A DNA stretch of 63,847 nt, the filler included, from Octopus bimaculoides (lineage: Eukaryota), in NCBI RefSeq assembly GCF_001194135.2. It is 5 parts of 4 records of this genome, joined end to end, with 100 filler letters (N's around TTAATTAATTAA, not from the genome) between each part and the next. Parts side by side here need not be neighbours in the genome. Positions count along the whole stretch, not along the records: positions 1 to 30,671 come from NC_068983.1; positions 30,772 to 43,817 come from NC_068987.1; positions 43,918 to 57,506 come from NC_068981.1; positions 57,607 to 61,217 come from NC_068987.1; positions 61,318 to 63,847 come from NW_026330467.1. The stretch is one strand, 5' to 3'. Positions 3,235 through 62,247 of the stretch are shown here, piece by piece. The position numbers and the translations under genes are program-made. Numbering within the stretch: the first letter of the stretch is position 1; each line of letters begins with the position of its first letter. Below the pieces are notes generated by a model. That model ran no database searches. It saw nothing but the letters and a program-made list of their open reading frames with translations, and was not told the DNA's origin.

Positions 3235-3960
3235 AAGGTTACAAACCTCATTCAGGGATAGCAAAATCCTATGAAAGTACTGGTTAATTACCTATACAAA
3301 GAATATTGAACATTACATTTAATATTTAACTGCAAGGTAACTATATAAACTGTGGTTCTTATATATTTATTTATTATAAGATGAGAAAATAGAGAGGTAA
3401 TTAATAAGTTATTATTTATTAATTAAATAATTGACAAACATCTCTTACAGCTGTTTCAATTCCAGACCTTCAGAAAATTAATTAAATTAAAAATTATTTG
3501 AAAGTCGAATCTCTTCAGAGGTTAAAGATATACAAAATAGGTGTTCAATTCCTGCATATTGAGTAAACGGTTGCAAACCGTTAATTCGACTTTCATAATT
3601 TTCTCTATCTTCTTGCATCTCTCTCTTCTTTTCCCCCTCTCACTTTATTTTCTATTTTGTCCTTTTTTTCTTCTTTTCTCTCTCCTTTCTCTAGATTCTT
3701 CGTAGCTCGTTATCTTTCTCTAACCATAGTTTTCTTTCTACTTCTCTCTCAAAATACTTATAAAATACCTCACCATGTACCCAACTCATGATATTAGTTC
3801 TCTGTAACAATACAATAAAGTGTTCTCTGATGATGTGTCTTGGTAAAGCATTCAATTGCACTTGGAATATCTAATGCAAAGTTCCACAAAACCAGAATAA
3901 TGAAATGTATGTAGGAACAAATAATATAACATTGTTTTTAATCGTCATTTCTCCTACATT
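3235..3960. mobile_element. Penelope-like element remnant (pLTR region)
   Basis: Carries the 3441-3521 hammerhead; AT-rich pLTR-like sequence with weak GIY-YIG-like translation near 3850-3930. Confidence 0.4.
3441..3521 (-). ncRNA. Type I hammerhead motif (Penelope-type)
   Basis: Minus: CT-CTGAAGA-GATTC-GACTTTCA...TGAAGGTC-TG-GAATT-GAAAC-AGCT-GTA-AG. Long stem II; stem I is only about 2 bp. Confidence 0.55.
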
Positions 3961-5875
3961 TGGTCTGTATAATATAATTAGTAATACTACTAAATAGTTG
4001 TTTAATAACTATTCTGGAAACAGAGTAGATGATGATGATTTACGTGAATCTCTAGACATAACAGTTACAGCCGTATTTATGCTTGTACACACAAGATACA
4101 CTACGTGTACACATACACGCACGCACACGCGCGCGCACTCATACACACTAATACACACACATACACACACAAGAAAAACTACATATGAATGCACATACAG
4201 CCATCCACACAGACACAGACATACACAAACTAATCTATTGTTAAATCCCTTATTTTATGGGTTGCATCGTTAGTATGTTACGGAATGTATCACATCTAAA
4301 ATGAGGATTAGATTATCATATATATTTGAAATTGGAAAATGTTGCCGATTCTAAGAAGTGGATCACTGCTGAAAATATCCTAATTACTTCAATAAAAAGC
4401 CAAAAAAAAAAAAAATTGAATGTTTGTTAATGCAACTCGAGAAAGATAAGTAATTAATGCTTTAAACAGGATTTTTCGCAATAGATATTTTGATTTCTCC
4501 TCTTGTATTTTTACTGATTAGACCGTTATTCTCTTCGAATTCCGGGTAGTGTCGTTAGATTATTGGAGAGCGACTCACGTCATTTAACTAGACTCTCTCC
4601 GCTCTGAATTCAAATCGTGCTGATGTCAGCATCGCCTTTCATTCGTTCGGGAGTCGATGAAAAAGTGCCAATCCAGGACGGTGTATGGACGAAACTGTAA
4701 CAACGTCAGCCTTGCAGTATTTGCTCTGATTCTATGTATTCAAAATTCAAATCCCGACATGACCTACTTGAGTAATTGGCTTATTCCGTCGTCTGGCTGA
4801 ACACCATCACTTGGCACTTTAAGTGCCTTTAGGGAATCCTCTCTGTTGTAAGGATTTTCAAACAGGTCTCCACCATTCTCGGGGCTTTTGTAAAGAGCCA
4901 TAGGTATTGTCTTCTCTCTTCGCCTCACTAATTCACTACAGGAAACTCATGAATAAAATAACATCGAATAAACTGGAATCTACAGCTGTTGTACATCTAC
5001 TGAGTTTTTAAAAAAATCCGTATTTGGTACGGTACATTTAAATTTGCTAGTATGTTGAATTTAGTCAAGTTTCTAGCAAAAGTACCCTGAGTATAACTTT
5101 ATTTCTTCTCTCCTTCATGCTTTGACGTATAACATCATGTCTATCACAAGATTACTCCTAGAGAATTACTCAACGGTTTTGAACTTTTCAAGTCTTTTGC
5201 GGAATAATTCTGGTTTGAGCACTCAGAACCAAAGAAATCTTTAAAGTACTCTTATTCTCACTAGGGGAGCTTTCAATCTGCACTAGAAAGGAAGAAAACT
5301 CTATCACTGATAGTTTCCTCTTTTCAAGAATAATCTCGGTAAATTTTCTTGATCCAGAACACACCCTTGTACATTACATGGCTTCAGATTTTAAATGACT
5401 TTATTGAACACTTTAAATCTTCAAAAGTGTTAGGATCTTTGTGCGAGTTTTTTTTACTAATGGTCCTAGCCTGTGTCTACTCAAATTAACATTATGAATG
5501 GTGCCTCTTTCAAACTCTATCCACTTTAATTTGTAGCATCGTATCGCTTCTAAACACAAATTTGCTTCCCTATTTAGTTGTCATTGCTTTGAATAGCTAA
5601 CACCTGTACACTCCAAGACAAGTATGAGCTGGTTATGGGGCACCTCCATATCATGTTTTATAGCAGTCATTGGAAGTTGCAATGGAATTTTGATAGACAC
5701 TCGACTTTAGAATCAACTATCTCTCCTAACTTCATCATTCTCAGTCTATGTCTCTGTCCTCCTGTTTCTGTCTCTCTGTCTATATCTTCCTGTCTCTGTC
5801 TCCCACTTTCTCTCTCTCTCTCTCTCTCTCTCTCTCTCTCTCTCTCTCTCTCTCTCTCTCTCGTTCTTTCTGACC

Positions 5876-6320
5876 ACCAGTATGGTTTCCAGTTGAGAAG
5901 AATGTCAAATGAGGAAATACCATCTCTCCAAAGCTCTCCTCTGCAGCAGGCCTTAAAATGAATCATATGAAAACAAAATTTATGCGGCCCGAAAGCGTAG
6001 TAGATGGCCAAATAGATATGGAGAACAATGAAATCGTGGAGATGAAGGAGTACGTCTACCTAGGGCACACAGTGAATATCCTCTGTGACATGGATGCCGA
6101 AATTTCGAAGAGAATAAGGTCAGGATGGTAGGCCTTTACCTCAATAAAGAATGTGTTCAATACAAAACTCGACTGAACCAAATGAGACGTGGGCTATTAC
6201 GAAGAGGGAAGAACATCGATTGGCTGCGACGCAAGGAAGCATGGAAAGATCCATGCGAGAAATATCATTGTGAAAGTATATCCGAAATAAAATAATTGGA
6301 GCAGACAGCCTTATTGAGGA
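5876..6320 (+). mobile_element. RTE-clade LINE RT C-terminal fragment
   Basis: GLKMNHMKTKFM...VEMKEYVYLGHTV...DAEISKRIRSGW*AF; ETWAITKREEHRLAATQGSMERSM; contains stops. Confidence 0.75.
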
Positions 6321-6374
6321 TACAACTTATAAATTTAAATCGAAATAAATTTTTACTATGAAAAATCATCTTAC

Positions 6375-6660
6375 TTGTTCTTCAAAAAAAATTTGATATA
6401 TGTAATCAAACGCAATGGATGCAAGGAAGATTGCATTGGACAAACTAAACTCACTTTTAAAATGAATTTAACAATTCATCGTCAACAAATCCAAATACCA
6501 GGACTAAACAAATGCCACTTAGCGAACGTCTGGACACATACGCGAAACCAAATCTCCCAGTTTTTTTTTTGTCTTTCCGCCTCATCAATGTGCATACAAT
6601 ACCACAGATCAAATAAGAAAAATGTGTTTATTAAAAAATACAAATAACGACTGAACAGGC
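6375..6660 (+). mobile_element. Penelope-like GIY-YIG endonuclease fragment
   Basis: NLIYVIKRNGCKEDCIGQTKLTFKMNLTIHRQQI (cf. IYxIxCxxCxxxYIGxT...RxxxH). Confidence 0.65.
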
Positions 6661-61317: not shown

Positions 61318-61692
61318 GAGCGTTCATAAAATTCAGTTTGTTATTATGATGATACGTTGACATGAGTATATCTTGTTGGTACTTGTACGCTGTAGGGTCA
61401 GCCGATGAGGGCTGCATGGCCTGCGCAAGTCCGGCAAAATCAAACTTATACGCGTACCGTTTACCGTGTACTTTTGTCATGATGTTCTTGTCGTAGTAAT
61501 AGCGAAGGGCACGGCTGAGTTTGTCGTAGTTCATGTTTGGTTTGCTCTTGCGCTCGCCCCAGCGGCGAGCGACTTCGTCGGGGTCCACCAGTTTGAACTC
61601 GCCGTTCGTACCTTCCCACGTTATACAATTCGAGTTACCAGTATCGGAAAGTAACTCCAGCAAAAACTGCCACAGCTGGATCTGCCCACTTC
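61318..61692 (-). CDS. Erg: ETS-domain exon of an Erg/Fli1 (Ets65A)-class transcription factor, truncated at an assembly join
   Basis: Acceptor ccaattccag, then (G)[124 protein letters not shown]. The post-ETS 'AYKYQ.D...YH..KLNF' tail favours ERG/FLI1 over FEV. GC is locally elevated. Confidence 0.93.
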
Positions 61693-61720
61693 CTGGAATT
61701 GGGTAAGACGTTTGGTGTGT

Positions 61721-61756
61721 TAAGTTGGTTAGTAAGTTGGTTAGTAAGTTGGTTAG
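61721..61756 (-). promoter_or_regulatory. Three exact 12-bp repeats giving tandem TACTAAC branch-point/STAR-protein motifs upstream of the ETS exon acceptor
   Basis: (taagttggttag)x3 on +; minus-strand TACTAAC at 61728-34 and 61740-46, AACTAAC at 61752-58. Confidence 0.55.
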
Positions 61757-62209
61757 TTGGTTGTTTGGTTGAGGTTAGAGATGAAAAAGAAAAAAAAAGG
61801 AGAAAGGTTAGAAATGTAATAAATATGTGATTAGTAAAGATGGAACTGAAAAACAGGGGTTAAAATTAGTAACATGAAAGAACAGAATAAAATAATAAAA
61901 GCATGAAGATGTAGATCAGGGATTCCCAATGTATCCCCTCCCCCTTTGTTCCTATTTCATTCTGGTGGATCCTACATTCATTCAATGCCTAAAAACTAGT
62001 TTTATATATACTTCTTTAAAAACATGTTTTGCTTTTTCACACGTCCCCTTATGTAGGCTGAAGTTTGTAAATCGTGATTTTCGGCCCTTTGATTACTATT
62101 TTTGTCTACTGGACCTCAATAACCATCCACTGTATATAACAAAAAAATCTTACGGTATTTTTGTAATTAAGATATCATGTATTAGCATAACGCTCGGGAA
62201 TAGAGAAAG

Positions 62210-62247
62210 TCTTTAACGTTTCGAGCCTACGCTCTTCAACAGAAGGG
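62210..62247 (-). ncRNA. Second copy of the CUGUUGA hammerhead-like variant
   Basis: Minus: CCCTT-CTGTTGA-A-GAGC-GTAG-GCTC-GAAAC-GTT-AAAGA; the flank (ttcccgagcgt...ctaata) is shared with the 12015 copy. Confidence 0.4.

What the first reader, a model, noticed from the sequence alone, without database searches (positions are those of the whole stretch)
3441..62247. Multiple hammerhead-ribozyme families, each with a different palindromic helix III: a possible self-recognition code
Seen: about ten type I hammerhead-like motifs. The sequence between GAA and the cleavage base is always a palindrome but differs by family: ACAGCTGT (3441, 25147), ACGCGCGT (26125, 28141), ACGATCGT (33559), ACATGT (43429) and ACGT (12015, 62210). 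Established: Penelope-like elements carry hammerheads with short palindromic helix III that cleave as dimers (Cervera and de la Pena 2014; Lunse et al. 2017, from recall). Inference: the palindromes could act as family-specific pairing keys that restrict dimer cleavage to same-family transcripts, including host pre-mRNAs carrying a copy. I know of no description of this repertoire in cephalopods but have not searched.
Basis: partly seen in the sequence, partly recalled or inferred. Interest (0 to 1): 0.75.

Follow-up and report, generated by a model that had tools for sequence, protein, structure and literature searches.

The report
Dimer-type hammerheads; palindromes shared across families
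These are decayed copies of small, likely self-cutting RNA motifs at the ends of several kinds of jumping gene; their self-complementary third stem is real and fits the published idea that such motifs would work in pairs, but the same palindrome is used by unrelated families, so it is not on its own a family-specific recognition code.

Summary
All eight cited motifs are present (8 descriptor hits against 0.32 in shuffles), plus four more decayed remnants. They are ends of dispersed repeats: four Hydra-type Penelope-like element (PLE) families, one Neptune-type PLE, and one ~350-nt retrozyme-like unit. The genome holds over 20,000 core matches. Helix III is palindromic far above chance (99 of 171 sampled hits with four free positions) and mostly constant within a family, as published for dimer-type hammerheads. 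The code reading fails for the palindrome alone. The two ACAGCTGT motifs belong to different families (endonucleases 40% identical); 17 of 25 sampled subfamilies share their palindrome; sharing exceeds a random draw; G·U intermediates bridge the supposed keys. In a strand-swapped dimer helix I must also match, and it varies more, so helix I plus III is nearly family-specific. That is likely a by-product of two identical copies pairing within one tandem transcript. Most window copies are damaged singletons, and three RNA-seq runs show no read ends at the cut site. Cleavage is untested. This scan reached the same verdict on other DNA (e1-8664523, e1-9829413). Side finding, also noted before (e1-9576697): a recurrent 3-nt deletion at one family's cut site.

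The parts
3443..3521 (-). Family A1 hammerhead: helix I CCU/AG(A) (family CCU/AGG), CUGAAGA, 58-nt helix II arm, GAA ACAGCUGU A; inside a 5'-truncated Hydra-type PLE end (about 3320-3584)
   Evidence: endonuclease remnant with CxCX5C linker upstream in sister copies L583/L584, joined to the hammerhead by overlapping homology
12015..12051 (+). Family E minimal hammerhead: UCUUU/AAAGA, CUGUUGA (U at position 6), A, GAGC/GCUC, GAA ACGU C; best-preserved copy in the window
   Evidence: 920 exact 28-mer matches in G000 against 0 control; Neptune-type endonuclease remnant upstream in L177/L351
24600..24882 (-).
25147..25241 (+). Family A2 hammerhead: family helix I UCCA/UGGG (broken in this copy), CUGAUGA, 67-nt helix II arm with an extra A before GAAA, ACAGCUGU C
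   Evidence: Hydra-type endonuclease remnant 1.9 kb upstream in L341
25857..26016 (-).
26125..26222 (-). Family B hammerhead: UUGCU/GGCAA (family UUGCC/GGCAA), CUGACGA, A, helix II (family GGUUU/AAACC), GAA ACGCGCGU A
27118..28142 (-). Broken C-terminal ORF remnant of the family B element: GIY-YIG endonuclease with CxCX5C linker, CxxC and CxH, the Hydra-clade pattern
   Evidence: Pfam GIY-YIG E=0.019, below the curated cut-off; motifs as defined in PMC8557442 section 11
28141..28235 (+). Inverted 5'-truncated partner of the family B insertion; core A9 changed to G, helix I 5' arm lost, so predicted inactive
33559..33638 (+). Family C hammerhead: UGCUA/UGGCG (family UAGCG), CUGAUGA, GUAC/GUAU (family GUAC), GAA ACGAUCGU A; sense strand, likely in an intron of an RNA polymerase largest-subunit gene
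   Evidence: Hydra-type endonuclease remnant about 3 kb upstream in L340; exons at 34845-35279 and 37987-38259 match Pfam RNA_pol_Rpb1_2
43369..43640 (+). Family D unit: rod-folding, ORF-less, about 350-nt period; hammerhead at 43426-43468 with family helix I UUCAGG/CCUGAA, CUGAUGA, GAG/CUC, GAA ACAUGU C; two pairing changes in this copy
   Evidence: period 350, 350, 354 in three copies; fold z=-5.46; RNA reads joining unit end to unit start
62210..62247 (-). Family E hammerhead, GUU triplet, one helix I mismatch; sense strand, likely in the intron before an ETS-domain exon
   Evidence: Ets exon at 61400-61774 (-), Pfam E=9.5e-37
30424..30480 (+). Heavily decayed family E-like remnant
   Evidence: 76% identity, E=2e-5
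60832..60907 (-). 5' half of a decayed copy of another ACAGCUGU family (F20-like); helix III not preserved
   Evidence: 78% identity, E=8e-12

Best explanation
The motifs are decayed genomic copies of type I hammerhead sequences from the 3' ends of at least five Penelope-like retrotransposon families and one retrozyme-like unit, and their palindromic helix III is likely kept because two identical copies in one tandem transcript would pair into a strand-swapped double hammerhead, with the choice of palindrome likely drifting rather than serving as a selected family code. Steps. Shown: repeat-family ends, inverted pairs, endonuclease links, palindrome excess, sharing of palindromes between families. 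Computed: helix III is unstable as a hairpin and stable as a two-strand duplex. Published: min-HHR monomers do not cleave, dimers cleave weakly. Inferred: any self-complementary sequence satisfies a dimer of identical copies; it changes by compensatory steps through G·U states; a swapped dimer also needs helix I to match across the two copies, so family selectivity comes from helix I plus III as a by-product; single, damaged copies in host introns stay largely uncut.
For: Fixed 3' ends 90-245 nt past the motif, ragged 5' ends and inverted partners in all six families. Endonuclease remnants upstream for A1, A2, B, C, E. Genome patterns: 13,486 vs 1,112 control, 8,082 vs 1,067, 6,721 vs 2,138. 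99 of 171 sampled 8-nt hits are strict palindromes, about 6-7% expected; 12 of the 16 possible 8-mers seen, GCGC of family B being a 13th. Duplex energies -7.0 to -14.9 kcal/mol for 8-mers against +2.4 to +2.9 for the hairpin. Sharing: 17 of 25 subfamilies; 19 sharing pairs against 9.6 expected, P about 0.01 before allowing for kinship. A1 and A2 share ACAGCUGU at 40% endonuclease identity; E and F3, both with hundreds to thousands of exact copies, share ACGU; two families about 65% alike keep ACCGGU while helix I is replaced. Wobble states amplified as subfamilies: GUGC (five listed copies) and UCGG, which pairs with both UCGA and CCGG (three listed copies counting two CpG-decayed ones). Helix I: 22 different 3-bp starts among 25 subfamilies; 17 of the 24 helix-III-compatible pairs fail helix I on both sides. 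No pile-up of read ends at the cut site for D or F3 in three runs. PMC4209133 and PMC6765202 state the palindrome and the dimer model.
Against: Palindromes do change between close sisters: three in cluster F6 with helix I unchanged, two in F8, two in F2, and A2 and C, the closest endonuclease pair (about 50% amino acid, 69-78% DNA), differ. Selection for divergence would also give this. Helix I plus III together are nearly unique (4 of 300 pairs fully cross-compatible). No cleavage was shown. Few same-strand tandems were seen (one in L359). The minimum-energy folds of 12015, as monomer and as dimer, pair the core with GAAAC and are not the hammerhead. The sample is the first 22 Mb of one contig plus best BLAST hits, subfamilies are not independent, and no tree was built. 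In Anolis the hammerhead cleaved only with the element's protein (PMC11167929 passages), so RNA pairing may not be the limiting step.
Confidence: 0.72

Rival explanations
1. Helix I and helix III together form a selected two-part key that stops co-expressed families from forming mixed dimers; the palindrome is one half of it.
For: Only 4 of 300 subfamily pairs are compatible in helix III and both helix I arms; sisters in F2, F6, F8 and A2/C have switched palindromes.
Against: The four compatible pairs are among close, abundant relatives (F5/F10/F12, F14/F15), where a key would matter most; sharing is above random; wobble intermediates cross-pair with both neighbours; a dimer formed within one transcript needs no key.
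Confidence: 0.13
2. One reading: the palindrome alone is a family key, and it also directs trans-cleavage of host pre-mRNAs that carry a copy.
For: Palindrome constant within most families; three window copies lie on the sense strand of likely introns; D and F3 sequences are present in RNA.
Against: Three to four ACAGCUGU families in this window alone; most window copies damaged; read depth continuous across the cut site; the cut-site-deleted F3 form makes up 7.4-8.6% of reads (196 of 2342, 148 of 1722, 128 of 1719) against 10% of exact genomic copies (502 of 5018), so uncuttable copies are not enriched. The libraries read both strands equally, which weakens this test.
Confidence: 0.04
3. The motifs fold as monomers with help from the element's protein, or serve as a protein-binding or initiation structure, and the palindrome only reflects a short helix III closed by a self-complementary loop.
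For: Anolis PAc hammerhead cleaves only with protein and is not needed for insertion in vitro; family E has U6 and a competing fold.
Against: A monomer needs only the outer pairs, yet the four inner positions are palindromic in 99 of 171 hits and covary across 13 sequences; hairpin energies are positive.
Confidence: 0.1
4. The palindromes are DNA-level sites or chance matches.
For: ACGT-type words are common; several GAA-palindrome hits in the window have no core.
Against: Shuffles and reversed-pattern controls; helices I and II covary by family; G·U versions are amplified, which fits RNA pairing and not DNA symmetry.
Confidence: 0.01

Closest known systems
Minimal and palindromic-helix-III hammerheads in pLTRs of metazoan PLEs (Cervera and De la Pena 2014, PMC4209133; parts 1-2 of 4 and supplement file 2 part 2 read; supplement file 1 not searchable)
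   Same: Type I layout, extra base after A9, short helix I, palindromic 15.2-16.2 and loop 3, many consensus families per genome, dimer model. Their Fig. S3 already lists different palindromes in one genome (Aedes UACGCGUA and UAGGCCUA with the same helix I) and mollusc examples.
   Different: No cephalopod in the passages searched; here helix II arms of 45-75 nt are common, 8-nt helix III is abundant, some families carry an extra A before GAAA, family E has U6.
Hydra-clade and Neptune-clade PLEs (Craig et al. 2021, PMC8557442; section 11, passages and File S1 rows seen; File S2 hammerhead table not seen)
   Same: C-terminal GIY-YIG; CxCX5C linker with CxxC and CxH in A1, A2, B, C; CX2-5CxxC linker in E; inverted 5'-truncated partner; hammerhead near the 3' end.
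   Different: Only broken remnants were found; no intact ORF and no RT was tied to A1, A2, B or C; 3' untranslated stretches of 1-3 kb.
Metazoan non-LTR retrozymes (Cervera and De la Pena 2020, PMC7229834, passages; Li et al. 2026, 10.64898/2026.07.22.740005, part 1 and passages)
   Same: Family D: ORF-less, about 350-nt period, rod-like fold, type I hammerhead with 6-bp helix I, end-to-start RNA joints.
   Different: Mostly dispersed monomers and inverted pairs here; circles and cleavage not shown.
Short-stem-III hammerheads that cleave as dimers (Lunse, Weinberg and Breaker 2017; not held, seen only as cited in PMC6765202, otherwise recalled)
   Same: Palindromic, very short stem III tied to PLEs; dimer cleavage.
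   Different: Whether it lists cephalopod motifs or tests mixed dimers could not be checked.

Membership tests
Type I hammerhead ribozyme | Core CUGANGA ... GAAA ... UH in type I order | tested here: met
   Family consensus of A1, A2, B, C, D; window copy 28141 has lost A9
Type I hammerhead ribozyme | A at core position 6 (family E: 12015, 62210) | tested here: not met
   CUGUUGA in 32 of 34 sampled copies, chosen partly on that pattern; competing fold. It is a core variant; activity unknown
Type I hammerhead ribozyme | Helices I and II pair and covary | tested here: met
   Different complementary arms in 25 subfamilies; helix I only 3 bp in A1
Type I hammerhead ribozyme | Self-cleavage after H17 | not testable with these tools
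   No read-end pile-up in three RNA-seq runs; such libraries are not made to show it
Type I hammerhead ribozyme | Match to an Rfam hammerhead model | tested here: not met
   None among 91 matches at E<=5; the models expect a normal helix II and III
PLE dimer-type (minimal) hammerhead | Palindromic helix III unstable as a monomer | tested here: met
   99 of 171; energies
PLE dimer-type (minimal) hammerhead | Position in the 3' end downstream of a PLE ORF | tested here: met
   A1, A2 (48), B (34, 88), C (56, 93), E (34, 48)
PLE dimer-type (minimal) hammerhead | Full pLTR-ORF-pLTR tandem with two same-strand motifs | tested here: inconclusive
   One same-strand pair 2.4 kb apart without a detected ORF (L359); gaps break most long copies
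Hydra-clade PLE (A1, A2, B, C) | CxCX5C linker, CxxC and CxH in the endonuclease | tested here: met
   B in the window, A1 in L584 and C in L340; in A2 the last Cys of the linker is changed
Hydra-clade PLE (A1, A2, B, C) | RT motifs (RWK, DKT) and place on the PLE tree | not tested
   No linked RT recovered; no tree built
Non-LTR retrozyme (family D) | ORF-less 170-400-nt unit with type I hammerhead, head-to-tail continuity | tested here: met
Non-LTR retrozyme (family D) | Abundant circular RNA | tested here: inconclusive
   End-to-start joints in all three runs can come from genomic tandems as well
Family-specific palindrome code | One palindrome per family | tested here: not met
   17 of 25 subfamilies share; A1 and A2 in the window
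Family-specific palindrome code | Mismatched pairs fail to cleave | not testable with these tools
   Predicted for 276 of 300 pairs from base pairing

The most novel reading that the evidence does not exclude
Helix I and helix III together act as a selected two-part self-recognition key: in a genome with more than 20,000 core-intact hammerheads, co-active sister families escape mixed dimers by switching palindrome or helix I through G·U intermediates, and the recurrent 3-nt deletion at the F3 cut site is a fossil record that such dimers cut RNA in the germ line.
Probability: 0.13. Interest if true: 0.7.

Novelty: new member of a known kind. Interest (0 to 1): 0.24.

Why it matters
As it stands it extends a known association to a very large repertoire (13 of 16 possible 8-nt palindromes, all four 6-nt ones, a long-helix-II form that Rfam misses) and supplies ready pairs for a clean experiment: same palindrome with different helix I (A1/A2, E/F3), same helix I with different palindrome (F6), and both the same (F5/F10/F12). 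If a selected key were shown, it would be a case of kin discrimination among selfish elements written in RNA pairing. The evidence here favours drift.

Tried and rejected
Rfam scan: no hammerhead. Lunse et al. 2017 is not held. A DNA search with the short family E copy returned nothing; a pattern search then worked. I first read the abundant ACGTGT hits (23 of 100) as a wobble palindrome; one search showed that most are family F3 with three bases missing at the cut site, so they are not counted as palindromes. I predicted the same deletion in a second family with GUH followed by GU: 15 of 100 listed hits had the short form, but none of the 4 inspected belonged to that family, so the prediction failed; D showed 0 of 100 and C 0 of 14 indels at the site. 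5' truncation at the F3 cut site: 1 of 100, no clear excess. The RT fragment at the start of L340 proved to belong to another element (F7), not to C. The RT in L409 could not be tied to F8 because of a gap. No ORF was found for D. The candidate at 50853 (GAA ACATGT C) has no core and matched no family. Cofolding did not return the active double hammerhead. No listed sequence holder is on record as RNA; three raw runs with the same species label were laid instead. Paper searches for an octopus description, a heterodimer or specificity test, an A3-U8 core (listings only) and cut-site scars found none; the squid genome paper only counts 235 Rfam hammerheads. Unseen supplements (PMC4209133 file 1, PMC8557442 File S2, bioRxiv files) may bear on these blanks.
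Full report
Observation. The window is a pack of five stretches. All eight cited motifs are there with the cited helix III. A descriptor asking for a CUG[AU]NG[AG] core upstream of GAA plus an AC..GU palindrome gives 8 hits against 0.32 on average, at most 3, in 200 dinucleotide shuffles. Family consensus sequences find four more remnants. Rfam reports no hammerhead. Only 12015 and 33559 pass a strict three-helix scan; the others have broken pairs, a changed core base or a very short helix I.

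What they are. Each motif is the end of a dispersed repeat in G000 (2.34 Gb): first-look candidates 600 (A1), 118 (A2), 880 (B), 330 (C), 1,852 (D), and 920 exact matches for E against 0 control. Copies share a fixed 3' end 90-245 nt past the motif, have ragged 5' ends, and often an inverted partner, the arrangement described for PLEs (PMC8557442 passages). In the window the family B insertion keeps a broken GIY-YIG ORF at 27118-28142 with the CxCX5C, CxxC and CxH motifs of the Hydra clade (Pfam E=0.019). Sister copies tie A1, A2 and C to the same endonuclease type and E to a Neptune-type one. D has no ORF, a period of 350-354 nt (3 copies), a rod-like fold (z=-5.46) and RNA reads that join its end to its start: it is retrozyme-like.

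The repertoire. Core patterns with an 8-nt helix III give 13,486 matches against 1,112 for the reversed control (long helix II) and 8,082 against 1,067 (short); with 6 nt, 6,721 against 2,138. I fetched 90 of the 100 listed long hits and 70 of the 100 listed short hits, all from the first 22 Mb of contig C1. Of 171 hits in these loci (one counted twice), 99 are strict palindromes at four free positions, where about 6-7% is expected; 12 of 16 possible palindromes occur, AGCU 50 times. Of the 100 listed 6-nt hits, 67 are strict palindromes by my count and all four possible ones occur; 23 GU hits are mostly a deletion form of family F3 and were set aside. So the constraint and the diversity are real.

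Is it a code? Within a family the palindrome is mostly constant. Between families it is shared. A1 (3441) and A2 (25147) both use ACAGCUGU, yet differ in helices I and II and their endonucleases are 40% identical over 137 residues; a third and probably a fourth ACAGCUGU family lie in the same window. From 400 hits in 173 clusters I kept 25 subfamilies with at least two copies of one self-pairing helix III and a pairing helix I, dropping singletons and clusters without agreement. They use 14 sequences; 17 of 25 share theirs. Among 18 strict 8-nt subfamilies 19 pairs share, against 9.6 for a uniform draw from 16 (P about 0.01; kin are not independent). A selected key should give less sharing. 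E and F3 (4,516 exact intact copies) share ACGU. Two families about 65% alike keep ACCGGU while helix I is replaced. G·U states have amplified as subfamilies: GUGC and UCGG, which pairs with both UCGA and CCGG. Against my reading: sisters have switched palindromes in F2, F6, F8 and in A2 against C, and 276 of 300 pairs cannot form helix III.

How it likely works. As a hairpin helix III costs +2.4 to +6.0 kcal/mol; as a two-strand duplex it gains 7-15 (8-mers), 5-8 (6-mers) or 1.7 (ACGU). In the double hammerhead each core takes its cleavage base and 3' helix I arm from the other copy (inference from the published model, PMC4209133 Fig. 1). Two identical copies can do this only if helix III is self-complementary, and any palindrome will do. 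Helix I must match too: it shows 22 different 3-bp starts among 25 subfamilies, 17 of the 24 helix-III-compatible pairs fail it on both sides, and only 4 of 300 pairs are fully compatible. Selectivity therefore follows from helix I plus III, most simply as a by-product of pairing within a tandem transcript. Published data: monomers inactive, dimers weakly active; the Anolis motif needs protein and is dispensable for insertion in vitro. Folding 12015 does not return the hammerhead, because U6 lets the core pair with GAAAC.

Host pre-mRNAs. Copies at 33559 and 43429 flank exons of an RNA polymerase largest-subunit gene on the same strand, and 62210 lies upstream of an ETS exon on its strand; intron position is inferred. 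Each is a single copy with changes from consensus. In three RNA-seq runs of one study (about 6% of each read), D and F3 reads come equally from both strands, depth is continuous over the cut site and no read ends pile up there. The uncuttable F3 deletion form is 7.4-8.6% of reads against 10% of exact genomic copies. This is weak evidence against much cleavage of host RNA.

Side result. In F3, 502 exact copies lack three bases at the cut site against 4,516 intact; 19 of the first 100 listed, against 2 for a stronger AAC repeat nearby. Deleted copies share no linked variants (0.10 shared per pair against 0.09 with intact), and four inverted pairs that share a variant differ in the deletion, so it recurs. 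It may be a scar of cleavage followed by a template jump, but the same prediction failed in a second family and D and C show none.

Known and new. The palindromic helix III, the dimer model, many families per genome and different palindromes in one genome are in PMC4209133 and reviewed in PMC6765202. I found no cephalopod account and no test of mixed dimers, but Lunse et al. 2017 and some supplements were out of reach. Earlier notes of this scan reached the same verdict on other DNA and noted the scars and the retrozyme. Verdict: real, a new member set of a known kind; palindrome-alone code rejected; two-helix selected key unlikely but open. Interest 0.24.

Noticed in passing
L493-L552 (family F3; G000:C1:79927 and others): Very abundant ACGU hammerhead family (8,788 pattern matches) in which about 10% of exact copies lack 3 nt at the predicted cut site; recurrent, independent within inverted pairs, apparently more frequent in the first 10 Mb of C1 (14 deleted to 39 intact listed). 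RNA loose ends show a tRNA-like head upstream.
   Followed up: yes
L360-L407 (e.g. L398 minus strand 3700-3740; L403): Neptune-type RT-endonuclease clade whose hammerhead has a swapped core pair, A3-U8 (AUGAYUA), kept in two families about 65% alike; 408 genome matches against 1 control. One family has a 2-bp helix II with a GAAA loop, the other a palindromic helix II. Not found in two paper searches.
   Followed up: partly
window 12020-12026 and 62236-62242: Family E core reads CUGUUGA (U6) in nearly all sampled copies; this lets the core pair with GAAAC in an extended, non-hammerhead hairpin.
   Followed up: partly
families A2, D, F5, F8, F12 (e.g. window 25225 and 43452): An extra unpaired A between helix II and GAAA is fixed in several families.
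   Followed up: no
window 50800-50870: GAA ACATGT C followed by an arm complementary to upstream CTGCT, but no recognisable core and no family match.
   Followed up: partly
window 34845-42203 (+): Exons of an RNA polymerase largest subunit (NADFDGD motif; Pfam RNA_pol_Rpb1_2), probably RNA polymerase III (inference).
   Followed up: partly
window 61400-61774 (-): ETS-domain exon of the ERG/FLI type (Pfam Ets E=9.5e-37; subtype recalled).
   Followed up: partly
window 40119-41174 (+), 36600-37449 (+), 51410-52653 (-), 53273-53617 (-): Remnants of other mobile elements seen in ORF lists: a LINE-type RT, a mariner-type transposase, LTR-retrotransposon-like pieces and another transposase; labels recalled from motifs, not tested.
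   Followed up: no
window 6339-6647 (+): Weak match to a Neptune-type PLE endonuclease (41% over 46 aa, E=4e-6).
   Followed up: no
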